Source of the DNA: an uncultured bacterium
GTDB taxonomy: Bacteria; Krumholzibacteriota; Krumholzibacteriia; Krumholzibacteriales; Krumholzibacteriaceae
NCBI GenBank assembly: GCA_964457905.1
Contig: CAYWGA010000002.1
Coordinates: forward strand, 3,475-67,474
DNA length: 64,000 bases
Direction of reading: 5' to 3'
Below, piece by piece: positions 7,404-41,237 of the stretch. The notes beneath the pieces are model-generated. The model did not search any database and was not told the origin of the DNA. It saw only the letters and a list, made by a program, of their open reading frames with translations. Position 1 is the stretch's first letter; each line of letters starts with the position of its first letter. Position numbers and translations under genes: made by a program.

Positions 7404-7432
7404 TTGACTCACTATAAGCACCCCCTATATAT
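7404..7432 (+). promoter_or_regulatory. Sigma-70-type promoter (TTGACT-N17-ATATAT) upstream of riboswitch/nrdD
   Basis: TTGACT at 7404-7409, 17-nt spacer, A/T hexamer 7427-7432. Lies immediately 5' of the riboswitch aptamer. Confidence 0.4.
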
Positions 7433-7444
7433 TGTGCCTTGCCG

Positions 7445-7625
7445 CCGGTAACCACTCCATATATAGGAGTGCTTACAGGAACCCGGTGAGACTCCGGGAC
7501 TGCCCCGCAGCGGTGAGCAGGAACGAAAGCCGCACGATGGCACTGGCCCCCGCCAGGGAGCCGGGAAGCCGCGGCCGGTAGGCAGGTACCGATACCAGCC
7601 TGCGAGTCCGAAGACCTGCCGGTGG
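7445..7625 (+). promoter_or_regulatory. Cobalamin (B12) riboswitch in the 5' leader of nrdD
   Basis: Contains GGAACCCGGTGAGACTCCGGGACTGCCCCGCAGCGGTGA (the conserved AGGGAA-CGGTGnAAnTCCG-GC-G-CCCGC-AC-GTnA core), the B12-box-like GGCACTGGCC, GGGAAGCC, and the 3' AGTCCGAAGACCTGCC element. About 200 nt of expression platform precede the AAGGA RBS of nrdD. Confidence 0.75.
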
Positions 7626-7827
7626 CCCGCGAAGACAATCGCGGATATATGGGCCGAACCCTTCGAGGGAAGGACCGGCCTGACAGGCAGATTTTATGGC
7701 GCATATGCTTCTCGAATGACACGATGCCTCTCTGCCGCCAGGCGAACTTTTTCTCTCATATCGAAGGAAGCGAACGGGACCCGAGGGCATGGGGCCCCGG
7801 TAGCTTTCTGCGGACGAAAGGACATTC

Positions 7828-16464: not shown

Positions 16465-18291
16465 ATGAAACTCAGGACCGGCATATACACTTTCGTGATC
16501 CTTTTCCTCCTGACAGGAACGGCCGCGGGCCAGTTCACAAAGGAGATACCGGACACGATTTCGTCTTCAAGCAACGAGAAGATGGATTCGCTGCAGAGCC
16601 AGGTCGCGAGAAACTCACTCGGCAAGCTTCTTAACGACTATGTATTTGTAACGAGGATGGATACGGCAAGCGTCGGCCGTGGAGCGGAAAAGAGTGAGGA
16701 TCCATTCGTTCCGTTCGTAGGCCGGTTCATCCGCCATGTCGAGATATACAGGTTCAACATCTTCAGTGACATCGAAGCCACAACGGACAATTCCGATTCC
16801 CCGGGATTTGTCAGGGCGCTCGAGTGGATCCATGTCGATACAAGGATCAACAAGATCGCCGGGTTCCTCCTCTTCGAGGAAGGCGATCCCGTCGATCCGT
16901 ACGCCTTGTCTGACTCGGAACGCCTACTCAGGGAGACCTCGTTTATTCAGGATGCACGAGTCAATATCATCCCCGTTGAGGGGAGCCCCGACTCGGTCGA
17001 CGTCCGGGTCCTGACAAGGGATGTCTGGTCGATAGGCGCAAGCTACACCTGGATCACCGAGGACCGGCACAGGGTCAAGTTTTACGAGAGAAACCTGGGT
17101 GGATACGGTCAGACCATCCAGTGGGAAGGTTCGCTCGACTTCAGCAGGACGAGGTACATCGACCATAGTCTCTACTACGGCGCTCCAAATATATATGGAA
17201 CATTCATCGACGGGTCGGCGAGGTGGGTCGACGCTGTTGCCTACAGGTACAACGAATGGGCACTCAGGCGAGGATATGTCTCACCTGAGATCAAATGGAT
17301 AGGCGCAGTATCGATAGAAGGAATGGACGACGTCGACGAGAATCCAGGGAAGATAAAGAAATGGGACCGCGAGGATTTCTGGATCGGCCGGTCCATCCGC
17401 ATCGGCAAGGGTTATACCGAAGAGGGAAGCAGAAGGAGGGTGATCCCGGCCATCAGGGTCCAGAGGACGGACTATCATGTGCGTCCCACAGTCAGCGCTG
17501 ACCTGAACCGCAGTTATCATGACAGGGTGTTGTATCTTGCCAGCCTTTCGTTTACCGAACGCTCTTTCCGGAAGATGAGGATGGTCTTCAGCTTCGGAAG
17601 GACGGAGGATATACCTTACGGGGCACTCGCCACAGTCACAGGTGGAACGAGTGATTCCGAGTTCTACAACAGGCCTTATCTCTCATTCGACCTCGCATAT
17701 TCCAGTTTCGTTGGAAGTTCGGGGTACCTTGCCGCGAGGGGAGCCCTTGGCAGCTACAAGAGGAACGGCCGGACCGAGGACGGGACACTTTCCCTGAACT
17801 TCGGCGGTTTTACCAGCCTGCTGCCCGCCTGGCGCGCGATGGCGAGGCATTTCTTTGTCATAGACTACATCTACGGGTATAACAGGCTCCCGAACAACGA
17901 TGTCGCTCTGGAATGGCCGAGAGGGGAACTGAGGGGGCTGTCCAACACGGGTGTCGAGGGCCATCAGCGGCTTACGATCAGCTGGGAGGGCATCCTCTTC
18001 GCCGACTGGGACTGGTACGGGTTCAGGTTCGCCTCGTTCGGATATGCTGAAGCTGGACAGTGCGGCCCGAACTGGGACTCGTTCCTCGACGCGAAGTATT
18101 ACTTCAGCCTCGGCGGCGGATTCAGGGTGCATAACGAAAGGCTGATCTTCGACGCCTACGAGGTGCGGTTCATGTACCATCCTGTCGTACCCGAAGGAGC
18201 GGACACGCAGGTTTTCAGGTTTGAGGCGGTCAAAAACCTCAGGATCCCCTTCCTCTCCCCCGGCGCTCCGAGGGTCCTCAAGTACGAATAA
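16465..18291 (+). CDS. Hypothetical secreted protein (608 aa)
   Basis: Signal peptide MKLRTGIYTFVILFLLTGTAAGQ. No recognisable catalytic motifs. Confidence 0.4.
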   Translation: MKLRTGIYTFVILFLLTGTAAGQFTKEIPDTISSSSNEKMDSLQSQVARNSLGKLLNDYVFVTRMDTASVGRGAEKSEDPFVPFVGRFIRHVEIYRFNIFSDIEATTDNSDSPGFVRALEWIHVDTRINKIAGFLLFEEGDPVDPYALSDSERLLRETSFIQDARVNIIPVEGSPDSVDVRVLTRDVWSIGASYTWITEDRHRVKFYERNLGGYGQTIQWEGSLDFSRTRYIDHSLYYGAPNIYGTFIDGSARWVDAVAYRYNEWALRRGYVSPEIKWIGAVSIEGMDDVDENPGKIKKWDREDFWIGRSIRIGKGYTEEGSRRRVIPAIRVQRTDYHVRPTVSADLNRSYHDRVLYLASLSFTERSFRKMRMVFSFGRTEDIPYGALATVTGGTSDSEFYNRPYLSFDLAYSSFVGSSGYLAARGALGSYKRNGRTEDGTLSLNFGGFTSLLPAWRAMARHFFVIDYIYGYNRLPNNDVALEWPRGELRGLSNTGVEGHQRLTISWEGILFADWDWYGFRFASFGYAEAGQCGPNWDSFLDAKYYFSLGGGFRVHNERLIFDAYEVRFMYHPVVPEGADTQVFRFEAVKNLRIPFLSPGAPRVLKYE

Positions 18292-21494: not shown

Positions 21495-22343
21495 ATGACC
21501 GAGTGCTTTTTTGTCTCAGATCTTCACGGCAAGACCAACCGGTACGAAAAGTTGTTCGGTGCGATCAGCAGGGAAAAGCCGGCGGCGGTATTCATCGGCG
21601 GAGATATACTTCCCTCAATCGGATCTACTGCGCCCTTTCACGATTTTCTGTCCGATTTTCTTTACGCAGGCCTGGACCGTCTTCGCTCTTCATTGGGCGA
21701 TAGCTACCCCGCGATCTTCATCATACCGGGCAATGACGACTACCACTCCATAGTGGAAGAGATTGATGCCCTCGCCGATACGGGTCTCCTGTTCAGTATG
21801 CATGGCAGGGTGGAACCTTTCGGCTTATGGAAGATATTCGGATATTCATTTACTCCACCCAGTCCATTCATGCTGAAGGACTGGGAGAAGTACGACGTCT
21901 CCCGCTTCACCGACCCGGGCTGTGTCTCTCCCGAGGAAGGCCGCTATACATTCGAAATCCCGGACTCGGAGAAACGCTACGCGACGATCGCCGCCGATCT
22001 CGAGTCACTTGCCGGCTCTGAGGATCTGGAGAGTGCCGTTTTCCTTTTCCATGCCCCTCCATACAAGACAAATCTGGACCGAGCCGATCTCGACGGCAGG
22101 TATGTCGACAGCATCCCGATGGATGTCAACGTAGGAAGCATAGCGATACGCAGGTTCATCGAGGAGCGTCAGCCCCTCTTGACGCTTCATGGGCATATAC
22201 ATGAATCGGCAAGATTAACGGGAGAATGGAAAGACACAATAGGCGAAACGGTGATGTTCTCGGGAGCCCATGACGGACCGGAACTCGCGCTGGTCAGGTT
22301 CAGGCTGGAAAATCCGGGGAAGGCAGAAAGAGAACTCCTCTAG
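21495..22343 (+). CDS. Calcineurin-like metallophosphoesterase
   Basis: FFVSDLHGK...AVFIGGDILP...IIPGNDD...LTLHGHIHE matches phosphoesterase motifs I-V. Start trimmed to the first ATG after the glnS stop. Confidence 0.6.
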   Translation: MTECFFVSDLHGKTNRYEKLFGAISREKPAAVFIGGDILPSIGSTAPFHDFLSDFLYAGLDRLRSSLGDSYPAIFIIPGNDDYHSIVEEIDALADTGLLFSMHGRVEPFGLWKIFGYSFTPPSPFMLKDWEKYDVSRFTDPGCVSPEEGRYTFEIPDSEKRYATIAADLESLAGSEDLESAVFLFHAPPYKTNLDRADLDGRYVDSIPMDVNVGSIAIRRFIEERQPLLTLHGHIHESARLTGEWKDTIGETVMFSGAHDGPELALVRFRLENPGKAERELL

Positions 22344-25300
22344 CCTTCGCCCGGATCTTTCAGCTTCAAGGGACGGGCGGGGTCCGTCACTGCGCCTATT
22401 TTTACCGCATAACTTGTCTTGTTCTCAATATCCTCATCTGTCACAACGTGTACATCGAGCAGCCCCCCGGAGCGATATCCGGTCCGGTTATAGTTGATCT
22501 CGTCGAGACACAGGCTCCACGCTTCAAGCCAGGTCATCAGATCATTACGCTGATCCTGTGTTCCGCGGAAGTGGACGAGAAGGTCGATATCGCTGGCTAG
22601 CCCGGCAGTTGCGTTCTTCGTGCTTCCAAAGACGTAGAAACCAACTACTCCGAAACGTTCGGGATCGAGTCGGGAGGCGATGTGCTCAGCCATCCTCAGG
22701 CGCCACATCCAGAGATGGTCGGTCGGTTTTTTTGCCTCTGCCTCCATCTCGGTGATCTCTTCCCTGTCCTCTGTCGGATCGGCAAGGATACCAAGTGCCT
22801 CACCCAGATCGGCGTTCATCAGTACCCTCAGGACCCTGCCCTTTGTCGCTTTGGGCACATCGATCAGTTTTATCGTATCGGCCAGCCCGGCATACTCGGG
22901 AAGCACGTCGGGAAGAAGATTTTTCGAGATTGAAAAGAACCTGTCGTTGAAAACGGTTCCCTCATCATCGGGATACAGCGGAAGGTATCTTATCTGTCCT
23001 TCCACGAGATCCTGGAAAAAATGTGTCCCAAACGAAAGATCCGGCTTATAGCCACCTTTGCTGCGTGCGATCTCCATCAGGACCGCTGTATTGTTGATGT
23101 CGGAATATGTCACGCTCACACCGAGTCGTATATCGCCCCTGCTCCCCCATCTGCCCGGTCCCATGAGTACGAACTGGCGCTTGGGCAGGATCTTGTTCAG
23201 CCGGCTGACTGCCCGTCCTACCTCCAGAAGTTCCTCACGGGAGGATATTTCGCCGTATTTCACCGGGTCCACGTATACCACGTGCGTGATATCCGGCACG
23301 CGCCCGTTGGATACATACCTGTCCGCTGAAAATACGATATCCTTCTCGGAGACATCCTTGGGGATGGGAGACGGCGCGATATCTTCCGAATAGCTCTGGG
23401 GCCTGCACTGGAGAAGATAGAAATCGTTGCCGTCATGAGCGAATTCGATGTCGACGGGATTACCGATAGTCTCTTCCAGGGTCTCAAGGATCGCCCGTAC
23501 TTTCCTTACGAATGGCGTATCGCTCAGGAGCCCCTCACACGTCATCAACAGGTCGTCCTTTTCGAAATCGATGCTCATCGGCATCGGCTTGTGCATATGA
23601 CCACCCTTATTGACCAGTACCATCTTTTCAATATTCGGATAGTCGTCGCCATGTGTCCTGAGCAGTTCGCTGATCTCGACCGTTTCGAATGTATTGCTCC
23701 GGAGGTTGATCACATCGATCATCTTCGGGGAATAATGCGCGATCTCTTCGGGAGCCACGTTGACGCGAAGACCGGGTTGTCCCGGCGCCACCAGGATGGG
23801 ATAATCGTCGCTTACCCTGTCGACTGCCCGCGTGCCAAGGCCCGGGACGAGCCTTATCAATCCGTCCTCCCTCTTTATCCTGGGAGACCACCTGAATTCG
23901 TTTCTGCTGAACGCCACCCCGGCGAATGCCGGCAGGAAGTAATCACCCATCCTCGTCCCGATGACCTCCTGGATGAGAATTCCCATCTCCTCGGCAAAAT
24001 CGAGGAGCCCCCTCTCAGCCCTGTATTCGATCGGATCCGGCCCGAAGGAGGAGGCATAGACCTCGGCGATGGCATCCATGAGGGCCTCGAGACACTCCCG
24101 CTTGGATCCCTGGTTGGCAAGAAACAGGCTTTTGTATTTACCGGAAAAAGACGCACCGAGGCTGTCCTCAAGCAGGCTCGAGCTACGGATGATAAGCGGC
24201 TTCCCCTCGCATTCATCGAGGACCATGGACAGCCCCTGAACGACCTCAGGAGGGAACCGTCCATTTTTGAACGATCTTATGACATTCGGATATTCGACTC
24301 TGACCTGATTGATGCTCTTGTACTTTTGCTCCACGACTTCATCCATGTTGTTATACTTCAGGAATCCAAGCAGGATGTCGGAAGTCATGTACCAGCTGTT
24401 GGGGACCTTGATGCTTGAAAGCTCCTCGTCTTCCGCGAAACTTTTTCTGATTATCTGTTTCGCCATGACCAGGCCGGCGCATTTACCCCCGAGCCGTCCA
24501 TGGCTTCCAGTCATATAGATCGTCTTGTCGAGAAACTCGAAGAAATCCGCGATCTCAAAATAATTCTTGGCGATGTTTATATAGTCGAGCTGCGAAGAGA
24601 GGAATCTTCTGACCAGAGATACTATGACTCCGAGCTTGGCGCTCGGAGAGAGATCTATGTTCTCGGAGACCGCATCCCTGTACTGCCTCAACGCTGCAAT
24701 CACATCGGGAAGAGTAAGGTTCCTGTTAGCGATATGTATCAGGTATTTCAGCCTGTCATCCTGGATCCATTTCTGCAGGTATGCATATATCTGGTCACCG
24801 GTGAACTGACTTGTAGCAATCCGGAATATCTCGAAACTCATATCTTCCGTCAGCCTGAGATTACCACTTCTCATCGGCCGGTTCTCGTCCTCCTGGCCCC
24901 TCGCTCCATTCTCATAATAATCCGGCACTATCTTCTGCTGCAGTTTTTCAGCGGCTGAGACACCTTCCCAGCACAGATGATTGAGCATCCTCTCGGTCAC
25001 ATTGTAATAAAGGTCCTTGTCTGTGAACCGCAGAAGGTTCAGGATGACTTTCCAGTCTTCCTTGCCGGAACTGTCCGCCGGCTCGCCCGATAATCCGGCC
25101 TTCACCTTCATATCATCCTGCTGGAGAAGACTGCCGATCCTATCGGCGATGGTCGAAAGCAGCTTTTTCTCCTGCCTCAGAAAGGGACCATCGTCCGCTT
25201 CCGGCATCTCTCGGCTGTAGAAGACAGACAGCTTCCCGGCCTGTCTCTTGCCGACAATGATATCCGCGCTCTGCATCCATGAGGTTTCGGTGAATCCATA

Positions 25301-25519
25301 TTCGCTGTAACTGTCAGGTCCCAGTTCGATTCTCACGCGGCAGTATTTTGGATACTGCCATCCGGACGGAATCGCTGAGACAATCTTCATGCACGTATCC
25401 CCGATATTCCCCTCATGATCCCTTACGATCTCCTCGATGCGGTACAGGCACTCAAGTTCCTTCTCTCTTTCAACAAAGAAACGCATGAGATCATCCGGAT
25501 TATCTTTTTGGTCATGCAT
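22340..25519 (-). CDS. Multidomain protein: N-terminal unknown region, PEP/pyruvate-binding (PPDK_N, ATP-grasp-like) domain, C-terminal Pol-beta-type nucleotidyltransferase
   Basis: RLGGKCAGLVMAKQII and IIRSSSLLEDSLGASFSGKYKSLF are PPDK_N hallmarks. C-terminus FYVFGSTKNATAGLASDIDLLVHF is the G[SG]x9-13Dh[DE]h minimal NTase motif. Its 5' end overlaps the upstream paralog by 8 nt. Confidence 0.6.
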   Translation of the reverse strand: MHDQKDNPDDLMRFFVEREKELECLYRIEEIVRDHEGNIGDTCMKIVSAIPSGWQYPKYCRVRIELGPDSYSEYGFTETSWMQSADIIVGKRQAGKLSVFYSREMPEADDGPFLRQEKKLLSTIADRIGSLLQQDDMKVKAGLSGEPADSSGKEDWKVILNLLRFTDKDLYYNVTERMLNHLCWEGVSAAEKLQQKIVPDYYENGARGQEDENRPMRSGNLRLTEDMSFEIFRIATSQFTGDQIYAYLQKWIQDDRLKYLIHIANRNLTLPDVIAALRQYRDAVSENIDLSPSAKLGVIVSLVRRFLSSQLDYINIAKNYFEIADFFEFLDKTIYMTGSHGRLGGKCAGLVMAKQIIRKSFAEDEELSSIKVPNSWYMTSDILLGFLKYNNMDEVVEQKYKSINQVRVEYPNVIRSFKNGRFPPEVVQGLSMVLDECEGKPLIIRSSSLLEDSLGASFSGKYKSLFLANQGSKRECLEALMDAIAEVYASSFGPDPIEYRAERGLLDFAEEMGILIQEVIGTRMGDYFLPAFAGVAFSRNEFRWSPRIKREDGLIRLVPGLGTRAVDRVSDDYPILVAPGQPGLRVNVAPEEIAHYSPKMIDVINLRSNTFETVEISELLRTHGDDYPNIEKMVLVNKGGHMHKPMPMSIDFEKDDLLMTCEGLLSDTPFVRKVRAILETLEETIGNPVDIEFAHDGNDFYLLQCRPQSYSEDIAPSPIPKDVSEKDIVFSADRYVSNGRVPDITHVVYVDPVKYGEISSREELLEVGRAVSRLNKILPKRQFVLMGPGRWGSRGDIRLGVSVTYSDINNTAVLMEIARSKGGYKPDLSFGTHFFQDLVEGQIRYLPLYPDDEGTVFNDRFFSISKNLLPDVLPEYAGLADTIKLIDVPKATKGRVLRVLMNADLGEALGILADPTEDREEITEMEAEAKKPTDHLWMWRLRMAEHIASRLDPERFGVVGFYVFGSTKNATAGLASDIDLLVHFRGTQDQRNDLMTWLEAWSLCLDEINYNRTGYRSGGLLDVHVVTDEDIENKTSYAVKIGAVTDPARPLKLKDPGEG

Positions 25520-27269
25520 GGAGGATCACCCCCCGGCCGCTCTTTCCGTCGACCTTTACAGTCAGCGGACTGTCGAGTCTGATATGCCGGACATGTTTTG
25601 TCTCGAAACAGGATTCTTTGGTTTTCAGCCATTTCCAGTCTATCGAACGATCGTCGTCATGTCGCATGGAAAAATAGAAGACCTTGAAGCTGGTCAGGTT
25701 GTGGAAGAAATGCGAACCCTGGCTCATCATGTACCCGAAGTTGGAAAGAGAGATCTCCACTATAACCTTCGCTCCGGATATCTGGCCGAAATCGACTGGG
25801 ATCCCGCCCATCTGGTCCGTCGTCCCCCAGCGTCCGAAGCCTACCAGAATGTATTTCCTGCCCTCTCCGACCAGCCTTTCGTTTATCGTCTCTATTTCAG
25901 AAGCGATCTCCCGGGACCTCATTATGTCGAATGTGTCGGGATCGATATATACCAGGTCGGAGATCGAATCATCGGCCCCGTTTCCCAGAACCGTGGTAGA
26001 AGAGATCAGCACTCCCGGATCGTCAAGCTCCTCCTCCGCAACGGTCACTTCAGACTTCGAAACGACCATCGGACGGGCCTGAAGAAATCCGAAATCGGCA
26101 GGTTCACCGAGCGTGCTTCCAAGTCTCATCGCGAACTCGATCTCCACCTTCGCTCCGAGCCGTTCCTCGCATTCCCTCATGACTGTCTTGAGGAGCTCGC
26201 TGAAATGGAAATCCCTGCCTCGAAGGATCGGCGAGAAATCAATGACCCTCGGCCCGTCACGAAAGATTCCGCTCTCGAGACGGTCATCCCTGTGATTATA
26301 TGTCGAGGCGATCAGGCCAAGGGACCCGTCATACTCGCAGTCCTTCAAATCGAATCGATCAAGGTACTCCATCTCTTCAACAGGACTGTATGTATGCAGC
26401 TTCCCCATATTCACTGCCCAGAACCCGGTCTGAGTATGCTTGAGCATATCACCGGTCGACTTGAACGGAGGACCGACAGCGGGCCATTCGGGCGAAAAGG
26501 CCCATGAGATCCCGTCATCGACAATCGTCCTCCCGAGACCGAGTGCCAGCTCGACTACCCCCTCCTCCGGTTCTGCCCTGCCGAAAGGATAAAAATTGAA
26601 CGATCTCATCACGCCTGATACGTGAGGGTAATACCTGTCCCCGAATCTCGTGCCGATGATATCCTGAATTATCACAGCCATCTTTTCATCCTCGATCGAA
26701 TGGCTCACGACCTTCATGTAGTCCCCTGCAGACTTGAAGAATGTAGAGGCATAGATGAATTTTACCGCCTCGGCCAGCTTCTGAAATCTGGAATCCGTAT
26801 CGGGAAGATTGTTGGGGACCATCTTTGTCGCGTAGACACTGGCGAAAGGCTCGAACATGGCATCCTCCAGCAGGCTCGAGGACCTTACCGCCAGAGGTGT
26901 GTGGACCTGCTGCGCGATAGCTCTCAGATCGCCGGCAAGCCCGACAGGAAGGGAAGCTCGCAGAAAAGCGTGGGCCTTGATCTCATCGCGCCTGTCGGAG
27001 AGCGCGATATCGTAGAGGTCGTTCTCCCGCATGAAGAGATCGAAAAACTCCGTTGTAATAACGGTCAGCCTTGGAATAGCGACCGATATAGCCGGTTCGA
27101 ACAGAGGCTTTACCTTATTTCCCAGCGCTTCACCCATCTTCGCCAATCCGTGAGCCTTGCCACCCAACTCACCGGAACCGATGAAAGTAAACCGCTCTTT
27201 CCCGGTAAAGAACTCCCGTTCGAACCGGCTGACAGTAAATTCATCCCTTATGCCGGATTCTTCAGACAA
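25512..27269 (-). CDS. PEP/pyruvate-binding (PPDK_N) domain protein, paralog of 22340..25519 without NTase
   Basis: ELGGKAHGLAKMGEAL and VRSSSLLEDAMFEPFASVYATKMVPN motifs. Shares the post-PPDK_N module (ILVGFGRWGTTD vs VLMGPGRWGSRGD) with the neighbour. Apparent TTG start 6 nt after the gdh stop. Confidence 0.55.
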   Translation of the reverse strand: MSEESGIRDEFTVSRFEREFFTGKERFTFIGSGELGGKAHGLAKMGEALGNKVKPLFEPAISVAIPRLTVITTEFFDLFMRENDLYDIALSDRRDEIKAHAFLRASLPVGLAGDLRAIAQQVHTPLAVRSSSLLEDAMFEPFASVYATKMVPNNLPDTDSRFQKLAEAVKFIYASTFFKSAGDYMKVVSHSIEDEKMAVIIQDIIGTRFGDRYYPHVSGVMRSFNFYPFGRAEPEEGVVELALGLGRTIVDDGISWAFSPEWPAVGPPFKSTGDMLKHTQTGFWAVNMGKLHTYSPVEEMEYLDRFDLKDCEYDGSLGLIASTYNHRDDRLESGIFRDGPRVIDFSPILRGRDFHFSELLKTVMRECEERLGAKVEIEFAMRLGSTLGEPADFGFLQARPMVVSKSEVTVAEEELDDPGVLISSTTVLGNGADDSISDLVYIDPDTFDIMRSREIASEIETINERLVGEGRKYILVGFGRWGTTDQMGGIPVDFGQISGAKVIVEISLSNFGYMMSQGSHFFHNLTSFKVFYFSMRHDDDRSIDWKWLKTKESCFETKHVRHIRLDSPLTVKVDGKSGRGVILHA

Positions 27270-27275
27270 CCGTTA

Positions 27276-28562
27276 TCACACCCATCCCCGGTCCTTGCAT
27301 GCCTGGGCCACACGGCCTACAGCGATGACGTAGGCGGCATCCCTCATGTAGATCTTCTTCTTCGCCGCGAGTGTGCTTACTGCCTCGAAGGCCGACGTCA
27401 TCTTCGAATCAAGCTTTCCGAGGACCTCATCCTTTTCCCAGAAGTAGTTCATGTTACACTGCACCTGCTCGAAGTAGCTGCAGGTCACCCCGCCGGCGTT
27501 CGCCAGAAGGTCGGGGATCATGAAAATCCCTCTTTCGTGGATGGTCTTATCGGCCTCGGGGGTGGTAGGGCCGTTCGCGCCCTCAGCGATGATCTTCACC
27601 GAGTCACTGATCAGGCTGACGTTCTCCTTCGTGATCTGGTTCTCGAGCGCGGCCGGGATTAGTATGTCGACCTCCTGCTCAAGCCAGGCACCGCCATCGA
27701 GGGCCTCATACCCGAGCTTTTCCGCTTTATCCTTCTGGATCCCACCGAAACGGTCGGTTATCCCCCTGAGGACTTCGAGGTCGACACCGTCTGATTTCCT
27801 GAAGCTGTACGACTTCTGTTCCTTCTGGTCCCAGCAGGATACGCAGATGACCTTTCCGCCTAGTTGCTGGTAAAGCTCGATCGCGTGCTGAGCCACATTG
27901 CCGAATCCCTGGACGCTTGCCTTCGTCTTCGAGGGCGGTATGCCGAGCTCCTTCAGCGCTTCCCGGACAGTGAATATCACTCCATATCCGGTCGCTTCGG
28001 TGCGTCCGAGTGAGCCGCCCATACCTACAGGCTTGCCCGTGATGAAACCGGGGAGCCTCTCGCCCCTGAGCATCTCGAACTCGTCGAGCATCCACAGCAT
28101 ATGCTGAGGATTGGTCATGACGTCCGGTGCCGGCACGTCGTTGACAGGTCCCATGTCTCTTGACAACTGCCTGACCCACCCCCGGCAGATCTGCTCCTGC
28201 TCGCGGGCGCTGAGGTTATGGGGATCGCAGATGACGCCGCCCTTGGAGCCTCCCAGTGGAATATCTACTACTGAGGTCTTCCAGGTCATCCACATCGAGA
28301 GCGCCCGGACCGTATCGATCGTCTCCATCGGGTGGAACCTTATCCCACCCTTGGCGGGCCCCCTGGCATCGTTGTGCTGGACCCTGAAACCGCGGAACAC
28401 CCTGGAGCTTCCATCATCCATGACGACAGGGATGCTCACATGATATTCCCGCATGTTGGTGCGAAGAAGTTCCCTGGTCCCCTCATCAAGGTCCAGAACA
28501 TCCGCCACATTGTCGAACTGCTCCTGCGCCATCTCGAAGGCGTTATACGAACGGTCCGCCAT
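27276..28562 (-). CDS. gdh: Glutamate dehydrogenase (~420-aa Thermotoga/Pyrococcus-type family)
   Basis: GGIRFHP...DIPLGGSKGGVICDP active-site motif. C-terminal Rossmann domain. AAGGAGG RBS. Confidence 0.85.
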   Translation of the reverse strand: MADRSYNAFEMAQEQFDNVADVLDLDEGTRELLRTNMREYHVSIPVVMDDGSSRVFRGFRVQHNDARGPAKGGIRFHPMETIDTVRALSMWMTWKTSVVDIPLGGSKGGVICDPHNLSAREQEQICRGWVRQLSRDMGPVNDVPAPDVMTNPQHMLWMLDEFEMLRGERLPGFITGKPVGMGGSLGRTEATGYGVIFTVREALKELGIPPSKTKASVQGFGNVAQHAIELYQQLGGKVICVSCWDQKEQKSYSFRKSDGVDLEVLRGITDRFGGIQKDKAEKLGYEALDGGAWLEQEVDILIPAALENQITKENVSLISDSVKIIAEGANGPTTPEADKTIHERGIFMIPDLLANAGGVTCSYFEQVQCNMNYFWEKDEVLGKLDSKMTSAFEAVSTLAAKKKIYMRDAAYVIAVGRVAQACKDRGWV

Positions 28563-28584: not shown

Positions 28585-30006
28585 TTAGCTGACGCTTGTT
28601 GTGCTCTGCATCGTTCCCGAGGCACCTTTTTTCTCCTGGTCATCCGGTTTCCTGGCACCGGTCATACTTTTCGCAACCATTCCCGCCGCCTTCATGAGCG
28701 GATATGCCGCGGGAGACGCTGTCAATAACGGGTGGGTGCCGATCTGGGATGTCAGGATCGTGTTTATACTCATCCTGCCCTGTATCAGGAATCCGATCAG
28801 ATTAGTCAGCTCTCCTGTGCTCGGTCCTCCGGAGACCTCTCCGCCCAGCAGCACTCCGGATTCCCTGGCGGCAATGAGCTTCACTTTCTGTTTGTGGGCA
28901 CCGGGCAGTGTCCCGGGGTGCTTGTCCACACCCTCGAAGACGCCGGTGACCATATCGAATCCTTCCTCCCTTGCCTTTGTCTCGGTAAGACCGGCAACGC
29001 CGAATCCGTGGTCGCCGAGGGCCGTGGAGAAGATCGAGATCGTCCCGCTGAAAGTCTTCACGGCTGAAAGTCTGAAAAGATTCATACCGGCGGTTCTCGC
29101 TTCGGCGCAGGCGGTCGATGCAAGCATGGCGTTGCATGGTTTTCTCGTTACGAAATCACGCTTCTCCGCGCAATCCCCGACAGCAAATACATCGGAATCT
29201 TCCGTTCTCATATATTCATCGACACGGATAAATCCCTGTTCTGTCAGGGACAGTCCCGTTTTTTCCGCGAGTACTGTATTCGGGCGGTACCCGACCGAGA
29301 GCACGACTGAATCTGCGTCGATGACCTTGTTGTCATCGAGGATGATTCCAGTGACCTTCTTGTCGCCGATTATCTGCTTGACCCCGTTACCGGTTATCAG
29401 CTTGACCCCTCTTTCCTTCAGGATCCCTTCGGCCTCGATCGCTATCTCCTCGTCAAAGGCCAGCCCGAGCACGTGGGGAAGTATCTCCACGAGGGTCACG
29501 TCCTTGCCCGCCTTGTTCAGTTCGTCCGATAGCTCGACGCCGATGAATCCGCCGCCGATGACGACGACCTTTTTCAATACGTTTATCGAAAGCTGGGTGC
29601 TGTCGAGATATACCTTGTCCTTCGGAACGGTAAAGACGTTCTCCAGGTCCGCGCCCTTGAGCCAGCCGGGACTGTTCGGAATCGAACCGCTGGCGATGAT
29701 CAGTTTCTCGTAACCGATCTCGTCGCCATCTTTCGTGGAACATACCTTTTTCTCTCGGTCGATCCCTGTGACCTCCGCGATGAGTTCTCTTATCCCGGCC
29801 CCGGCAAAGACCTTTCCTGCGGGAAGGAGGTCATTCTCTGTGCTCCCGACCGTACCGAAGATATACGGAATACCGCAGGGTATCAAGACCTTACCATCCT
29901 TGTGGATCACGAGGACATCCTTGTCCGGATAGTGAGTCTTGACTGTCGTTGCCGCAACAAAGCCGGCAGCGCTGCCACCGATGATGATTACATCTGCTTT
30001 ATCCAT
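28585..30006 (-). CDS. FAD-dependent pyridine nucleotide-disulfide oxidoreductase, NADH oxidase/CoA-disulfide reductase family, with ~100-aa C-terminal extension
   Basis: N-terminal VIIIGGSAAG FAD fold. Single redox Cys in VLIPCGIPY (Nox/CoADR class). Second Rossmann motif VVVIGGGFIGVE. GGGAGA RBS. Confidence 0.7.
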   Translation of the reverse strand: MDKADVIIIGGSAAGFVAATTVKTHYPDKDVLVIHKDGKVLIPCGIPYIFGTVGSTENDLLPAGKVFAGAGIRELIAEVTGIDREKKVCSTKDGDEIGYEKLIIASGSIPNSPGWLKGADLENVFTVPKDKVYLDSTQLSINVLKKVVVIGGGFIGVELSDELNKAGKDVTLVEILPHVLGLAFDEEIAIEAEGILKERGVKLITGNGVKQIIGDKKVTGIILDDNKVIDADSVVLSVGYRPNTVLAEKTGLSLTEQGFIRVDEYMRTEDSDVFAVGDCAEKRDFVTRKPCNAMLASTACAEARTAGMNLFRLSAVKTFSGTISIFSTALGDHGFGVAGLTETKAREEGFDMVTGVFEGVDKHPGTLPGAHKQKVKLIAARESGVLLGGEVSGGPSTGELTNLIGFLIQGRMSINTILTSQIGTHPLLTASPAAYPLMKAAGMVAKSMTGARKPDDQEKKGASGTMQSTTSVS

Positions 30007-30065: not shown

Positions 30066-30080
30066 GCAATGGCCGTGCCA
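30066..30080 (-). promoter_or_regulatory. Sigma-54 promoter (-24 TGGCAC / -12 TTGC) reading toward the nox-gdh-PPDK_N operon
   Basis: Minus-strand sequence TGGCACGGCCATTGC matches TGGCAC-N5-TTGC exactly. About 60 nt upstream of the operon start codon at 30006, directly downstream of the sigma-54 activator gene. Confidence 0.6.
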
Positions 30081-30194: not shown

Positions 30195-31820
30195 TCAGGG
30201 GTCGATGCCCGATTCCTTGAGTTTGCGCCACAGGGTAGTCTTGCCGATGCCGAGGATATCGGCAGCCTTCGAGCGGTTTCCATTCGTTGTCTCGAGGACC
30301 TTTCTGATATATTCCCGCTCCATCTCGGCCATCGTCATAGCTTCACCGTCCGCTCCGAACGCCATCCGGCCCTCAGCTTCCAACAGTTCCCGCGGGAGAT
30401 GTTCCGGCCGTATCCAGCCGTCATCGGTCAGCACCGCCGCCCGCTCCAGAACATTCTCCAGCTCACGGATATTCCCGGGCCAGTAGTATCTTTCCAGGTG
30501 CCTGATCGAGGCGGGCGCCAGTTTCAGCTTTTCGATCTTGAGCTTTCCGGAGAGACGGGACACAAAGAATCGCGCCAGCGGAATGATATCTATCTTGCGG
30601 TCCCGCAGGGGCGGGATCTCTATCTCTACGACCCCCAGCCGGTAGTAAAGGTCCTCCCTGAACCTTTCCTCCCGGATGAACTGCTTGAGAATCCGGTTGG
30701 TGGAGGCGATAACCCTGACGTCCACGGGCCTGTTGCGGTTATCCCCCACGCGGCGGATCTGTCTTTCCTGAAGCACGCGAAGAAGGGCTATCTGAAGGGC
30801 GGGAGAGATGTCGCCTATCTCGTCGAGCAGGATCGTCCCTCCGCTCGCTTCCTCGAAAAGCCCCACACGGTCGCGCACTGCCCCGGTGAATGATCCCGCG
30901 ACATGCCCGAACAGCTCGCTCGTCAGAAGCGTTTCAGGAAGCGCCGCGCAGTTCATCGCGACGAACTGCTTGTGTTTTCTCGGCGAACTGTCGTGGATGA
31001 ATCTCGCGAGCACCTCCTTGCCCACACCACTTTCTCCGGTTATCAGCACCGACGAATCAAAACGCGCCACACGGGAGGCCGTCTCGAGGACCTGCCGGTA
31101 CGGCTTGCTCCTGAGCTCCGGGGTGTTCCCGATGCTGAGGGGCACTATTTGCTGAAGCCTCTTCTGCTTCCGCGCGAGATCCAGGGTCTTCTTTCTCAGC
31201 TCGGTCATCAGGTCCTCTACCTTGCCCTGGATATCCTCCGACGCGAAATCCTCGACGAATTGATCCGCTTCGGCTCCCCACGAGTCGAGATCCTTTCCGA
31301 CGACCTCGCATACCTTGTCACCCCTGCAGCGACAGCTCTCCTCCCTGAAATAGACAGGCTTCTTCAGGCAGTAAGAAGCGTAACCGCTCGCGTAACCCTC
31401 CATTATCCAACACCCGGATTTTTTCGACACCCCTATTTCGATCAGCTGCTCATCGGCCTCGGCAGAATCGAGCCAGAGCACATCCATCTGAAACGTTCCA
31501 TCCTCCCCGACCATCATCTCCACGATCTCAGTCTTCGCCACGCCCTGCAGGGCGTGAAGATGCGGCCCCGCCCTCAACCATTCCTCCCTGCTGTCCCAGT
31601 CGACGATACTCTCCATCGCCGCGGCGTCTGCCTTGCCCCAGTAATAACCGAACCTGGCCAGTATCTTCCTCGTCTGTTCCGTCCCTATGGAGTTGACGAG
31701 GTCCTTTCGAAGCTGGGCCATTGCATGGATGTCATGAAGCACGAGCCTGCGACCTTGAAGACTCAACAGGCCCTCGGAGAAGGAGACGATATCTTCCAGC
31801 TTCAGATCTTCGGCTTTCAT
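30195..31820 (-). CDS. Sigma-54-dependent transcriptional activator with XylR-N/V4R-type sensing domain
   Basis: AAA+ sigma-54 interaction domain (GESGVGKEV, ESELFGHVAGSFTGA). C-terminal Fis-type HTH (AADILGIGKTTLWRKLK). N-terminal ~200 aa resembles the XylR/DmpR effector domain with Cys-rich V4R segment. Confidence 0.85.
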   Translation of the reverse strand: MKAEDLKLEDIVSFSEGLLSLQGRRLVLHDIHAMAQLRKDLVNSIGTEQTRKILARFGYYWGKADAAAMESIVDWDSREEWLRAGPHLHALQGVAKTEIVEMMVGEDGTFQMDVLWLDSAEADEQLIEIGVSKKSGCWIMEGYASGYASYCLKKPVYFREESCRCRGDKVCEVVGKDLDSWGAEADQFVEDFASEDIQGKVEDLMTELRKKTLDLARKQKRLQQIVPLSIGNTPELRSKPYRQVLETASRVARFDSSVLITGESGVGKEVLARFIHDSSPRKHKQFVAMNCAALPETLLTSELFGHVAGSFTGAVRDRVGLFEEASGGTILLDEIGDISPALQIALLRVLQERQIRRVGDNRNRPVDVRVIASTNRILKQFIREERFREDLYYRLGVVEIEIPPLRDRKIDIIPLARFFVSRLSGKLKIEKLKLAPASIRHLERYYWPGNIRELENVLERAAVLTDDGWIRPEHLPRELLEAEGRMAFGADGEAMTMAEMEREYIRKVLETTNGNRSKAADILGIGKTTLWRKLKESGIDP

Positions 31821-36939: not shown

Positions 36940-38010
36940 ATGAAAAACGGAAGAAAGCTCCTGCCGGCGATTATCGCATTGGCCATCCTGGCGATCGCGT
37001 CGTACGGCTGCGGCGGCGATTCGCAGTCGAAGGAGAATGGCGAAGAAGACAAGGATCCTGTAGTTCCCGTAGAGGTAGGCGCGGTCAAGACCGGCGACAT
37101 CTCTGCCTATTTCACCGGCACAGCTAACATCGAGGCCGAAGAGGAGACCGGAGTAGTCGCCAAGGTGAGCGGTGTAGTCGAAGAGCTCTACGTTGAAGAG
37201 GGCGATTTCGTCAAGGCGGGGGCTGTCCTCGCGAAACTCGACGACGAGATGATCGGTGTACAGCTCGAGCAGGCAAAGGCCGACATGAGAAATCAGGAGA
37301 ACAACTACAAGCGTAACCAGGACCTCCACGAGAAACAGCTCGTCAGCACAGAGGTCTTCCAGCAGGTCAAGTTCGAGTACGAGCGTCAGAAGGCTGCATA
37401 CGACCTCGCCGCGCTGAGCCTCAAGTACACATCGATCAAGACTCCGATCAGCGGCGTCGTTTCCGAGAGGAATGTCAAGGTCGGCAACATGGTCCTGCAG
37501 AACCAGGATATATTCAGGGTCAGCGGGCTCGATCCGATTATCGCGATCCTGTACGTTCCCGAGAGGCAGCTCGAGAGGATGAAGGCAGGACAGAGATCGG
37601 TCCTTCATATAGACGCCCTTGGCGGCACGGACTTCGAAGGCTACATCAAACGTATAAGTCCCATCGTCGACTCAGGAACCGGCACCGTAAAGGTCACAAT
37701 CGAAGTCAATGACCCGACAGGCCGGGTCAGGCCGGGCATGTTCGCCCGGGTCAAGATCGTATACAATGTCCATGAGGGCACGACACTGGCCCCGAAGGAC
37801 GGGATAATGGATGAAGACCGTGAATCGACGGTCTTCGTCGTCCAGGACAGCACCGTTTACAAACGAACTGTTGTCCTCGGCTACACCAACACGACCCATG
37901 TCGAGATCCTCGAAGGGCTCATGCCTGGCGACACAATCGTCACCACGGGCAAGGGCAGCCTGAAGGACAGCACAAAGGTCGAGATCGTCAGGTCGGGCGG
38001 CGATAAATGA
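36940..38010 (+). CDS. RND efflux periplasmic adaptor (membrane fusion protein) lipoprotein
   Basis: Lipobox ASYGCGG. Biotinyl-lipoyl-like hairpin and beta-barrel MFP segments (VKVGNMVLQNQDIFRV...). GGGAGAGAG RBS. Confidence 0.8.
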   Translation: MKNGRKLLPAIIALAILAIASYGCGGDSQSKENGEEDKDPVVPVEVGAVKTGDISAYFTGTANIEAEEETGVVAKVSGVVEELYVEEGDFVKAGAVLAKLDDEMIGVQLEQAKADMRNQENNYKRNQDLHEKQLVSTEVFQQVKFEYERQKAAYDLAALSLKYTSIKTPISGVVSERNVKVGNMVLQNQDIFRVSGLDPIIAILYVPERQLERMKAGQRSVLHIDALGGTDFEGYIKRISPIVDSGTGTVKVTIEVNDPTGRVRPGMFARVKIVYNVHEGTTLAPKDGIMDEDRESTVFVVQDSTVYKRTVVLGYTNTTHVEILEGLMPGDTIVTTGKGSLKDSTKVEIVRSGGDK

Positions 38011-41000: not shown

Positions 41001-41237
41001 GGCGGAATGGACAGACGGTCGGCTATCCTGGAAGGCGGCAAGTCAAGGCTGCGACCGATCCTCATGACGACTCTTACGACCACTCTGGGCCTCCTACCCC
41101 TGGCCCTCGGAGTCGGAGAAGGCGCTGAAGTGAGGGCGCCCATGGCCATCACAGTCATCGGGGGACTGACCGTATCGACTCTGCTTACGCTCATCGTAAT
41201 ACCTGTCGTATATGACCTGTTCGACAGGAGAAGATAG
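38007..41237 (+). CDS. RND multidrug efflux pump, inner-membrane subunit (AcrB/HAE1 family)
   Basis: 1076 aa, 12-TM plus two large periplasmic loops. Conserved TM4 motif ALGIGMLLDNSIVVLENI and C-terminal AxxGxxRLRPILMTTLTT. Start overlaps the MFP stop. Confidence 0.9.
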   Translation: MKIIEISIRRRVTIAMFTLAVILFGAVSFFRLKINLLPELTYPTLTVRTEYAGAAPAEIENVISKPIEEVLGVVKNVNRVSSISRSGQSDVILEFAWGTDMDYAGLDVREKLDVLQLPLEVERPTLLRFDPSLDPVLRFGFYKEKTADADSAGVDDDWFDEEELKFLRRFAEEEIKKELESSLGVAAVKVSGGLEDEIQIFIDQQLTAQLDLPISTLAAQIGAENVNLSGGRLEEGTQQYLVRTLNEFESIEEIGDVVVSTKDGKPIYLRDIATVRHGYKEREAITRLNGREAVEIAIYKEGDANTVAVARDVEKHLSRAKRVLPEGYRLVKVYDQSTFIRQAINEVITAAVIGGILAIIILYLFLQNFWATVIISLSIPVSVIATFNMMYGADLSLNIMSLGGIALGIGMLLDNSIVVLENISRHRAMGKNISDSARDGASEVGKAVTASTLTTVAVFLPLVFVSGISGQLFRDQALTVTFALIASLIVALTLIPMLASLQANKVPPPPPTPKKEPKRRVGRWFTTVGRFIFSTVPVFFTKIILGICSGLSRIFSFLLRPLLKLFTRVYDTVAGWYDGMLAWSLDHRGRIIFIAFVMFAGTMLMATNLGVELIPQLSQGEFRVEFRLSPGTPLEVTDRAIRSVQESTTDIAGISTVFAVAGTGNRMDANPEQGGENWGELNVVLQPGSERDDEERVMAQMRGDLHRVPDLQYKFSRPTLFTFKTPVEIEIAGYDLRSLKKVSNDITAKLDSNPRFADVKSTMKAGHPEIQIRFDREKAAALGFQVYEVADRVVSKVRGDVASRYSWRDRKIDILVRAKESDRNSVDKIRKLIINPESEHPVTLEAVADITLDTGPGEIRRIDQERVALVTANLNYGDLGTAAEEINGMIRGIPMPGGLAVTVAGQNQEMTKSFKSLQFALLLAVFLVYLVMASQFESFLHPFVILFSIPLALIGAVWALFLTGSTISVVVFIGLILLAGIVVNNAIVLIDLINQLRDGGMDRRSAILEGGKSRLRPILMTTLTTTLGLLPLALGVGEGAEVRAPMAITVIGGLTVSTLLTLIVIPVVYDLFDRRR

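What the first reader, a model, noticed from the sequence alone, without database searches (positions are those of the whole stretch)
22340..27269. Tandem paralogous PEP/pyruvate-binding (PPDK_N) proteins lacking phosphohistidine and PEP-utiliser domains; one is fused to a Pol-beta nucleotidyltransferase
Both proteins carry the ATP-grasp-like PPDK_N signatures (GGK..GL, SSSLLED..F...Y..K). Both lack the His-swivel and TIM-barrel domains of PEP synthase, PPDK, or rifampin phosphotransferase. Instead they share a distinct ~200-aa C-terminal module (G[FP]GRWG[ST]). The distal paralog (1059 aa) adds a ~330-aa N-terminal region and a C-terminal minimal nucleotidyltransferase (GSx9-DIDLLV). An ATP-dependent phospho/pyrophospho-transfer module coupled to an NMP-transferase suggests a two-step small-molecule or macromolecule modification enzyme. 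Examples would be antibiotic-like inactivation or nucleotide-signal synthesis. I cannot place this architecture in any described family.
Basis: partly seen in the sequence, partly recalled or inferred. Interest (0 to 1): 0.75.

Follow-up and report, generated by a model that had tools for sequence, protein, structure and literature searches.

The report
Glutamate-dehydrogenase-linked ATP-grasp/nucleotidyltransferase enzyme pair
Two related, uncharacterised ATP-using enzymes, one carrying a sensor domain and a nucleotide-transferring domain, sit in one operon with glutamate dehydrogenase in hundreds of bacterial species from more than a dozen phyla, so they are probably an unrecognised control or ATP-coupling device for a central enzyme of nitrogen metabolism.

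Summary
Window 25512-27269(-) encodes B (585 aa) and 22340-25519(-) encodes A (1059 aa). Both have a PPDK_N ATP-grasp domain followed by a shared ~190-aa C-module that Pfam does not hold. A also has a GAF-like sensor fold, a helical domain and an MNT-type nucleotidyltransferase.

The pair lies in a tight operon behind a canonical glutamate dehydrogenase (GDH). GDH-(B)-A is conserved in most of 82 loci from more than a dozen phyla, often with a convergent metallophosphoesterase that co-varies with B. Natural B-A fusions exist. Distant family members also lie next to GDH or glutamate synthase.

The C-module has a swivelling beta/beta/alpha-like fold with one His invariant across the superfamily. 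No sequence homology to the canonical phosphohistidine domain was found.

My best reading, inferred and not shown, is a dikinase-type phosphotransfer core plus an AMPylase that modifies GDH, with the phosphoesterase reversing it. An ATP-coupled metabolic role at the glutamate/2-oxoglutarate node is the main rival.

Curated libraries and the literature searches gave no characterised member. It is common but unstudied: a new variant of the dikinase kind. Interest 0.66.

The parts
27276..28562 (-). Glutamate dehydrogenase, 428 aa. It is the first conserved gene of the module. Its stop codon lies 6 nt before the start of B.
   Evidence: Pfam ELFV_dehydrog_N plus ELFV_dehydrog. E 2e-123 to Thermococcus GDH 1euz. 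The GGSKGG and GFGNVA motifs are intact. It lies upstream on the same strand in 61 of 66 evaluable loci.
25512..27269 (-). Protein B, 585 aa: ATP-grasp plus C-module, with no other domain.
   Evidence: Present directly upstream of A in 60 of 76 evaluable loci. Fused to A in P0241 and P0244.
26034..27170 (-). PPDK_N ATP-grasp domain of B (residues 34-412).
   Evidence: Pfam E 3e-31. K37, R128, E375/E377, Q396 and R398 are invariant in 76 homologues.
25515..26033 (-). C-module of B plus its C-terminal tail (residues 413-584). It contains GFGRWGT and SQGSH519FF.
   Evidence: It aligns to the C-module of A. The invariant residues are listed.
22340..25519 (-). Protein A, 1059 aa, with five structural regions: GAF-like, helical, ATP-grasp, C-module and NTase.
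   Evidence: AF2 model with pLDDT 83.4 and pTM 0.71.
25094..25501 (-). GAF-like sensor fold of A (residues 7-142), with the invariant ERxKELxCLY and GWQ(Y/H)P..C motifs.
   Evidence: Foldseek matches the NifA GAF domain 8jrc_B and phytochrome GAF domains (prob 1.0, E about 0.04). Invariant C23, C59, W53 and Q54. There is no Pfam hit.
24530..25069 (-). All-helical domain of A (residues 151-330). Function unknown.
   Evidence: AF2 secondary structure. No Pfam hit.
23402..24502 (-). PPDK_N ATP-grasp domain of A (residues 340-706).
   Evidence: Pfam E 9e-60. Foldseek matches RPH 5hv3 (E 8e-14), PEPS 2ols and HpeI 9goj. K345, R444, E450/D451, E691, Q703 and R705 are conserved.
22784..23341 (-). C-module of A (residues 727-912). 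It contains GPGRWGS (786-792), E815 and SFGTH832FF.
23024..23026 (-). Codon of His832, the candidate phospho-carrier residue.
   Evidence: Invariant in alignments A1, A2 and A5. It sits at the N-terminus of helix 831-839, after strand 812-816 and a Gly-containing loop.
22346..22717 (-). MNT-type nucleotidyltransferase domain of A (residues 935-1058).
   Evidence: PF01909 scores above its cut-off. G964-S965-x10-D976-x-D978 and D1021 are invariant. Foldseek matches MNT 2rff, 8xeh_E, 7ae9_G and AadA.
21495..22343 (+). Metallophosphoesterase, 282 aa from Met33 of the ORF. It converges on A with a 4-nt overlap.
   Evidence: Pfam Metallophos. A 282-aa gene call on other contigs. The ligand motifs DxH, GD, GNDD, H and GHxH are conserved. 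Present downstream in 38 of 63 evaluable loci: 36 of 48 loci with B against 2 of 14 without B.
28585..30006 (-). Pyridine nucleotide-disulphide oxidoreductase, the first gene of the operon in this window only.
   Evidence: Pfam and NCBIfam. Not found next to the module in any of the 82 related loci.
30066..30080 (-). Sigma-54 promoter-like site TGGCACGGCCATTGC, 60 nt upstream of the operon's first gene.
   Evidence: Not conserved elsewhere: a strict match lies upstream of GDH in 1 of 64 loci.
30195..31820 (-). Sigma-54 activator (XylR_N/V4R, AAA+, HTH), probably the local regulator of the operon.
   Evidence: Pfam. A 54%-identical homologue lies upstream of GDH in L018.

Best explanation
A and B are the catalytic parts of a module dedicated to glutamate dehydrogenase.

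Shown:
- Each has an intact PEPS/PPDK-type ATP-grasp domain followed by a shared C-module.
- They are co-transcribed with GDH, with a 6-nt gap and an 8-nt overlap between the genes.
- They occur as natural B-A fusions.
- The GDH-(B)-A order is conserved across more than a dozen phyla.

Inferred mechanism:
1. As in all characterised PPDK_N enzymes, the ATP-grasp domain splits ATP and loads a phosphoryl group onto a histidine of the adjacent mobile domain. Here that would be His832 of A and His519 of B, in a swivelling-fold C-module.
2. Neither protein has a small-molecule acceptor domain, so the phosphoryl group would pass to a partner protein. The best candidate is GDH, or A itself in the case of B.
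3. A adds a GAF-like sensor fold and an MNT-type nucleotidyltransferase. MNT enzymes AMPylate proteins. A would therefore integrate a metabolite signal and add an NMP and/or phosphate mark to GDH, switching its activity.
4. The metallophosphoesterase, which co-varies with B, removes the mark.

Overall the module would be a GlnE-like covalent switch for GDH, built from different parts.
For: Architecture and intact catalytic residues:
-.
- Structure model and fold matches to RPH, PEPS, HpeI, GAF and MNT.

C-module:
- High-confidence model.
- H832 is invariant across 38 sequences sharing only 24-59% identity.
- The C-module follows PPDK_N in every architecture I checked with Pfam.

GDH linkage:
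-.
- 61 of 66 loci have GDH upstream on the same strand.
- It also holds for the B-A fusion, for a minimal 605-aa core and for a 907-aa NTase-less relative that lies between glutamate synthase genes and GDH.

B and the phosphoesterase co-vary: 36 of 48 loci with B against 2 of 14 without.

Precedents:
- Dikinases use a swivel His, and two-component dikinases exist (PMC12167813).
- Mammalian GDH is inactivated by AMPylation (PMC12375108).
- From my own knowledge, not checked here: MNT antitoxins AMPylate proteins, and GlnE adenylylates glutamine synthetase.
Against: - No biochemical data exist, and no protein-protein contact or modification site on GDH was tested.
- A and B are 50-60% identical across phyla over their whole length, which is unusually strong conservation for a regulator.
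- Minimal core proteins without GAF or NTase are also GDH-linked, so the sensor and AMPylase are not essential to the link.
- Some superfamily members, including an archaeal 764-aa type, are not near GDH.
- The phosphoesterase is absent from about 40% of loci.
Confidence: 0.38

Rival explanations
1. Metabolic role. The ATP-grasp plus C-module core is a small-molecule dikinase acting at the glutamate / 2-oxoglutarate / ammonia node. For example, it could phosphorylate the carbonyl of 2-oxoglutarate, or a GDH-bound intermediate, so that amination becomes ATP-driven. That would make an ATP-coupled, high-affinity GDH, analogous to carbonyl activation by PigC/RedH. The extra ~80 aa of the C-module, or GDH itself, would supply the acceptor site.
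For: - Every characterised PPDK_N enzyme matched here acts on a small molecule: PEPS, PPDK, RPH and HpeHI by fold, and PigC by weak NCBIfam hits. See also PMC12167813.
- Conservation is very high over the full length, as for core enzymes.
- A minimal core without sensor or NTase lies directly behind GDH.
- A relative is embedded between glutamate synthase genes and GDH, and another lies next to asparagine synthase and CN_hydrolase.
- The window and loci L001 and L002 hold a second, E. coli-type GDH. The linked GDH may therefore have a special role.
Against: - There is no 2-oxoacid-binding TIM barrel or other recognisable acceptor domain.
- The GAF-like sensor, the MNT NTase and the accessory phosphoesterase look regulatory.
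- No such chemistry is known for GDH.
Confidence: 0.25
2. A and B act on each other rather than on GDH. B would phosphorylate A or A would AMPylate B, forming a signalling relay whose output (for example, a nucleotide second messenger made by the NTase) controls nitrogen metabolism more broadly. GDH would merely be co-expressed.
For: - B-A fusions exist.
- Of the gene pairs compared, A and B have the most strongly correlated pairwise distances, r = 0.59.
- A has a GAF-like sensor fold.
Against: - A occurs without B in about 20% of loci, yet still sits next to GDH.
- MNT-type NTases are not known as second-messenger synthases (my own knowledge).
- No receptor or effector gene is conserved nearby.
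Confidence: 0.12
3. Xenobiotic or antibiotic inactivation of the rifampin-phosphotransferase or aminoglycoside-nucleotidyltransferase kind, or an anti-phage defence system.
For: The closest solved structures of the ATP-grasp domain are RPH, and NTase matches include AadA and AAD(9). There are weak PADLOC hits to the PDC-S09 NTase models.
Against: - NF041857 (RPH) scores 35.6 bits against a cut-off of 999, and there is no rifampin-binding domain.
- PADLOC finds nothing for B and matches only the NTase motif of A.
- The conserved neighbour is a housekeeping GDH in a chromosomal context beside GlnRS. No mobile-element or variable-island signature was seen.
Confidence: 0.03

Closest known systems
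PEP synthase / pyruvate phosphate dikinase (PEP-utilising dikinases)
   Same: They share a homologous N-terminal ATP-grasp domain (PPDK_N) with the same nucleotide-binding residues (GGK, RSS..ED, E-x-E/D-F, Q-x-R). A mobile-looking alpha/beta domain carrying a conserved [T/S]-H at a helix N-terminus follows immediately.
   Different: There is no PF00391 signature (T/SxxGGxxxH), no sequence-level homology of the C-module, and no PEP/pyruvate TIM barrel. A has extra GAF-like, helical and NTase domains. The genomic link is to GDH, not to gluconeogenesis.
Rifampin phosphotransferase (RPH) and two-component phenolic dikinases HpeHI / PpsAB (PMC12167813)
   Same: These are the best structural matches of the ATP-grasp domain (5hv3 E 8e-14; HpeI 9goj E 2.7e-10). 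They give a precedent for dikinases split over two polypeptides and for acceptors other than pyruvate.
   Different: RPH and HpeH carry a dedicated substrate-binding domain and a canonical swivel domain. A and B each carry their own ATP-grasp domain plus C-module and have no acceptor domain. Both paralogues look catalytically complete.
Glutamine synthetase adenylyltransferase GlnE / uridylyltransferase GlnD
   Same: These are large multidomain NTase-containing enzymes that reversibly modify a central nitrogen-assimilation enzyme or its regulator in response to metabolite signals. This is the functional analogy I propose.
   Different: There is no sequence or domain-architecture relationship beyond the Pol-beta NTase fold, and no GlnE or GlnD Pfam domains. 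The proposed target is GDH, not GS or PII. This is an analogy only and is untested.
MNT (minimal nucleotidyltransferase) antitoxins such as MntA of HEPN-MNT systems
   Same: The C-terminal domain of A has the MNT fold and the G-S-x10-D-x-D motif. MNTs AMPylate proteins.
   Different: No HEPN partner was found. NF047752 scores 17.3 bits against a cut-off of 60. The domain is fused to a dikinase-like core and is not a stand-alone antitoxin.
SelO-mediated AMPylation of mitochondrial GDH (PMC12375108)
   Same: It shows that GDH activity can be switched off by AMPylation.
   Different: The enzyme fold (pseudokinase), the organism and the GDH type (with antenna) all differ. It is a conceptual precedent only.

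Membership tests
PEP synthase / PPDK (PEP-utilising dikinases) | N-terminal PPDK_N ATP-grasp nucleotide-binding domain | tested here: met
   PF01326 E 9e-60 for A and 3e-31 for B. Foldseek matches to 2ols, 1kbl and 5jvl.
PEP synthase / PPDK (PEP-utilising dikinases) | Canonical phosphohistidine swivel domain (PF00391, T/SxxGGxxxH) | tested here: not met
PEP synthase / PPDK (PEP-utilising dikinases) | C-terminal PEP/pyruvate-binding TIM barrel (PF02896) | tested here: not met
   No hit. TIGR01418 scores 51 bits against a cut-off of 739.75, and NF005057 scores 52 against 598.
Rifampin phosphotransferase | Whole-protein equivalog score, including the rifampin-binding domain | tested here: not met
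   NF041857 scores 35.6 bits against a cut-off of 999, and only the ATP-grasp N-lobe aligns.
PigC / RedH prodigiosin ligases | Whole-protein equivalog score | tested here: not met
   NF052631 scores 43.7 bits (B) and 34.1 bits (A) against a cut-off of 1300.
Two-component dikinases (HpeHI, PpsAB, CreHI) | A stand-alone ATP-grasp subunit plus a partner with a substrate-binding domain and a canonical swivel His domain | tested here: not met
   The ATP-grasp domain resembles HpeI (9goj). However, B carries its own C-module, and no HpeH-like gene is among the conserved neighbours.
Pol-beta superfamily NTase, MNT/NTP_transf_2 type | hG[GS]x9-13Dh[DE]h motif with a third acidic residue, and the PF01909 score | tested here: met
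   PF01909 scores 26.3 bits against a cut-off of 21. G964, S965, D976, D978 and D1021 are invariant in 20 homologues. Foldseek matches to 2rff, 8xeh_E and 7ae9_G.
HEPN-MNT toxin-antitoxin | An adjacent HEPN toxin partner and the MntA equivalog score | tested here: not met
   NF047752 scores 17.3 bits against a cut-off of 60. No HEPN domain appears in A or in the flanking genes.
GAF sensor domains | GAF fold and family HMM | tested here: inconclusive
   Foldseek matches the NifA GAF domain 8jrc_B and phytochrome GAF domains with prob 1.0 but E about 0.04. No Pfam GAF hit. The ligand is unknown.
GlnE/GlnD-type nitrogen-regulatory nucleotidyltransferases | GlnE or GlnD family domains | tested here: not met
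   No GlnE or GlnD Pfam or NCBIfam hit for A. The resemblance is functional analogy only.
Known anti-phage defence systems (PADLOC) | A match to a defence-system protein model | tested here: not met
   B gives no hit. A gives only weak NTase-motif hits to PDC-S09 (E about 1e-6 over 40 aa).
Protein-modifying regulator of GDH (proposed) | Covalent modification of GDH by A or B, reversed by the phosphoesterase | not testable with these tools
   Only genomic linkage is available.

The most novel reading that the evidence does not exclude
The GDH-(B)-A(-phosphoesterase) module is a previously unrecognised way of controlling, or energetically driving, glutamate dehydrogenase, and it is widespread. 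Either it is a histidine-phosphotransfer plus AMPylation switch on GDH, or it is an ATP-coupled GDH reaction. It is built on a new kind of phospho-carrier domain (the GRWG...G[T/S]HFF C-module) that replaces the canonical swivel domain of dikinases.
Probability: 0.3. Interest if true: 0.85.

Novelty: new variant of a known kind. Interest (0 to 1): 0.66.

Why it matters
GDH is the gateway between amino-acid carbon and nitrogen in the protein-degrading, mostly uncultivated phyla that carry this module. These include Krumholzibacteriota, Aminicenantes and other Acidobacteriota, Zixibacteria, Ignavibacteria, Calditrichota, Planctomycetota and Cloacimonadota.

A dedicated ATP-dependent modifier or coupling enzyme for GDH would add a new regulatory layer to bacterial nitrogen metabolism, comparable in rank to GlnE/GlnD for glutamine synthetase.

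It would also define a new branch of the dikinase superfamily, with a non-canonical carrier domain that Pfam does not hold.

Finally, it would correct the misleading names 'pyruvate, water dikinase', 'pyruvate, phosphate dikinase' and 'PEP/pyruvate-binding domain-containing protein' that many public copies of these proteins carry.

Tried and rejected
1. Curated libraries. Pfam, NCBIfam and PADLOC give no family for the whole proteins or for the C-module.
2. Canonical swivel domain by sequence. I fetched E. coli PpsA, PtsI, PtsP, FryA and PtsA, aligned their His domains and ran hhalign against the A+B C-module profile. The probability was 0.15%. The B-family profile against full PpsA aligns only the ATP-grasp N-lobe.
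3. Foldseek of the isolated C-module against PDB gave nothing significant, best E 0.05. The afdb50 library was unavailable.
4. A regex scan of the window and all loci for a genuine GG.T[SC]H swivel motif found none.
5. Literature. The eight full-text searches I ran (one further query was rejected for syntax) found no paper on a PPDK_N+NTase protein or on its link with GDH.
6. Sigma-54 control as a conserved feature is rejected. A strict promoter match lies upstream of GDH in 1 of 64 loci.
7. The pyridine-nucleotide oxidoreductase, the sigma-54 activator and GlnRS are not conserved partners. The oxidoreductase and GlnRS are absent from all 82 related loci, and the activator recurs upstream of GDH only in L018.
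8. A profile of the metallophosphoesterase against PDB hit only the hypothetical protein aq_1956 (E 0.004) and, weakly, YfcE. No functional assignment follows.
9. Mantel (mirror-tree) correlations are positive for most pairs (A-B 0.59, A-GDH 0.36), as expected for co-inherited genes. They are not discriminating.
10. A defence-island or antibiotic-resistance reading is rejected on context and scores.
Full report
**Observation**

The two ORFs exist exactly as described. A is 22340-25519(-), 1059 aa. B is 25512-27269(-), 585 aa with a TTG start, and overlaps A by 8 nt.

- Pfam places PPDK_N at A342-725 (E 9e-60) and B34-412 (E 3e-31). It places NTP_transf_2 at A954-990, above its gathering score.
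- Neither protein has PEP-utilizers (PF00391) or the PEP-binding TIM barrel.
- BLASTP shows the two are paralogues over the ATP-grasp domain and a further ~150-190 aa: 26% identity, E 7e-38.
- The quoted motifs are present.
- NCBIfam models for PEPS, RPH and PigC/RedH match only the ATP-grasp N-lobe, at 20-55 bits against cut-offs of 600-1350.
- PADLOC finds nothing apart from weak NTase-motif hits.

**Anatomy**

An AlphaFold2 model of A, built from 91 sequences, has pLDDT 83.4 and pTM 0.71. It resolves five regions:

| Residues | Region | Evidence |
|---|---|---|
| 7-142 | alpha/beta domain matching GAF domains (NifA, phytochromes) | Foldseek prob 1.0, E about 0.04 |
| 151-330 | all-helical domain | |
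| 340-706 | ATP-grasp domain | best matches RPH 5hv3 (E 8e-14), PEPS 2ols, HpeI 9goj |
| 727-912 | C-module | see below |
| 935-1058 | MNT-type NTase, after a disordered linker | matches 2rff, HEPN-MNT complexes, AadA |

The canonical ATP-grasp residues are invariant or nearly so in both families and in remote relatives. These are GGK345, R444-SSS-x-L-E450-D451, E691-F-A, Q703 and R705. The equivalents in B are K37, R128, E375/E377, Q396 and R398. The NTase motif G964-S965-x10-D976-x-D978 plus D1021 is invariant. Both catalytic centres of A, and that of B, therefore look active.

**The C-module**

- It has no Pfam match even at E<=10.
- Folded alone, it gives a confident model: pLDDT 91, pTM 0.90.
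- Foldseek finds nothing significant.
- A local hhalign of the C-module profile against five E. coli swivel domains is negative, with probability 0.15%.
- Homology to PF00391 is therefore not demonstrated.

Three observations still point to the same job:
1. The module immediately follows PPDK_N in every architecture I checked with Pfam.
2. One histidine (H832 in A, H519 in B) is invariant across 38 sequences that share only 24-59% identity. G786-x-G-R-W-G791, E815 and S828-x-G830 are conserved alongside it.
3. That His lies in a [T/S]-H dipeptide at the N-terminus of a helix, between two strands. As I recall it, this is the topology around the catalytic His of PPDK and PEPS. I could not superpose coordinates to check.

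**Context**

- In two complete Aminicenantes-like chromosomes the order is GDH (428 aa), B (585 aa), A (1063 aa), then a convergent metallophosphoesterase. This matches the window, where GDH ends 6 nt before B.
- The 80 loci returned come from Krumholzibacteriota, Zixibacteria, Aminicenantes and other Acidobacteriota, Planctomycetota, Ignavibacteria/Melioribacter, Calditrichota, Eisenbacteria, Cloacimonadota, Myxococcales, Spirochaetes, Bacteroidota, Fermentibacteria and Fibrobacterota.

tblastn over 82 loci gives these counts:

| Feature | Count |
|---|---|
| GDH upstream on the same strand | 61 of 66 evaluable loci (64 of 66 anywhere in the locus) |
| B directly upstream of A | 60 of 76 |
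| Phosphoesterase downstream of A | 38 of 63 (34 convergent) |
| Phosphoesterase present, loci with B | 36 of 48 |
| Phosphoesterase present, loci without B | 2 of 14 |

An unbiased clustering of all ORFs in the loci found no other conserved neighbour. The window's oxidoreductase, sigma-54 activator and GlnRS are lineage-specific. The clean sigma-54 promoter at 30066-30080 is not conserved elsewhere.

**Wider family**

A phmmer scan of 1.84 billion cluster representatives with the C-module finds 1547 representatives at E<=1e-3.

- Four proteins of 1484-1654 aa have two C-module matches (P0241, P0244, P0246, P0279). Pfam finds two PPDK_N domains in the three I scanned, P0241, P0244 and P0279.
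- P0241 is a B-A fusion. Its N-half matches all of B at 39% identity, and it again lies behind a GDH gene.
- A minimal 605-aa core lies directly downstream of GDH.
- A 907-aa A-like protein without an NTase lies between glutamate synthase genes (GltB-like, NuoF/GltD-like) and GDH.
- A 589-aa member lies beside asparagine synthase and a CN_hydrolase.
- A ~765-790-aa type, one example of which is on an archaeal contig, is not GDH-linked.

The link to the glutamate / 2-oxoglutarate / ammonia node is therefore deep in the family, but it is not universal.

**GDH**

The linked GDH is canonical and looks active, with GGSKGG and GFGNVA intact and E 2e-123 to archaeal and Thermotoga-type GDH structures. 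It is unusually conserved, at 70-84% identity to the window copy across phyla. The window has a second, E. coli-type GDH at 4606-5946. L001 and L002 have one too, immediately upstream.

**Interpretation**

Shown:
- two catalytically intact dikinase-type ATP-grasp paralogues that share a new His-bearing module;
- a GAF-like fold and an MNT NTase on the long paralogue;
- operonic, fusion-supported association of A and B with each other, and of both with GDH;
- an accessory phosphoesterase that tracks B.

Inferred:
- The ATP-grasp domain phosphorylates His832 and His519. All characterised PPDK_N enzymes work through a swivel His (PMC12167813).
- With no acceptor-binding domain present, the acceptor is a protein. 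GDH is the obvious candidate.
- The NTase AMPylates a protein. MNT enzymes provide the precedent, and mammalian GDH is switched off by AMPylation (PMC12375108).
- The phosphoesterase reverses the mark.

I rate this regulatory reading at about 0.38.

The main rival, at about 0.25, is a metabolic one: an ATP-driven small-molecule step coupled to GDH. It is favoured by the enzyme-like conservation and by the GDH-linked minimal cores. A self-contained A/B signalling relay gets about 0.12. Resistance or defence functions get about 0.03.

**Known or new**

I found no curated family, solved structure of a member, or paper (eight full-text searches ran and one further query was rejected). Public names are generic or wrong ('pyruvate, water dikinase'). 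The architecture is common, so it is not a rarity of this window. It is a new variant of the dikinase kind, with an undescribed carrier module and an undescribed, strongly conserved partnership with GDH.

Noticed in passing
window 4606-5946 (-): There is a second glutamate dehydrogenase (446 aa, E. coli-like long type) about 21 kb from the module. L001 and L002 also carry a second, 453-aa GDH, divergently adjacent to the module's GDH. Carriers may keep one 'free' GDH and one module-linked GDH.
   Followed up: partly
window 7429-7637 (+), upstream of 7828-9972 (+): A cobalamin riboswitch (Rfam RF00174, 95.5 bits) lies directly upstream of an anaerobic ribonucleotide reductase NrdD gene with an ATP-cone.
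   Followed up: no
window 30066-30080 (-) and 30195-31820 (-): A perfect sigma-54 promoter consensus (TGGCAC-N5-TTGC) lies 60 nt before the oxidoreductase-GDH-B-A operon, next to a XylR_N/V4R-type sigma-54 activator. This arrangement is lineage-specific: a homologous activator lies upstream of GDH only in L018, and a strict promoter match occurs in 1 of 64 other loci.
   Followed up: yes
L090 347-1831 (-): A SelO (protein AMPylase) gene lies about 2.4 kb upstream of the GDH that precedes the B-A fusion protein P0241. SelO AMPylates mitochondrial GDH in mammals, but here the proximity may be coincidence.
   Followed up: no
L095 1-8875: A distant A-like protein (907 aa, no NTase) is embedded in an apparent operon: NuoF/GltD-like oxidoreductase, Fe-S protein, GltB-like glutamate synthase, A-like protein, GDH. 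The A-like gene and the GDH gene overlap by 4 nt.
   Followed up: partly
L093 3497-5791: A ~765-aa branch of the superfamily (unknown ~195-aa N-terminal region, then PPDK_N, then C-module) lies on a contig that also carries GatD/GatE-type genes, which I take to be archaeal. It has no GDH nearby.
   Followed up: partly
window 1889-4513 (+) and 16465-18291 (+): Two long ORFs (874 aa and 608 aa) have no significant Pfam match.
   Followed up: no
window 60001-64000: G+C content drops from about 0.55 to 0.41-0.48 at the end of the window. Genes there include an S11 D-Ala-D-Ala carboxypeptidase (61675-62574) and a D-Ala-D-Ala ligase-like ATP-grasp protein (62990-63976), so this may be acquired DNA.
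   Followed up: no
window 38007-41237 (+): An AcrB-type RND efflux transporter gene (1076 aa) is followed directly by a 1024-aa ORF at 41238-44312. I did not scan the second ORF, but it may be a tandem paralogue.
   Followed up: no
window 25094-25501 (-) (A residues 7-142): The GAF-like domain has two invariant cysteines (C23, C59) and an invariant GWQ(Y/H)P motif, which hints at a redox, metal or cofactor ligand. Nothing was tested.
   Followed up: no
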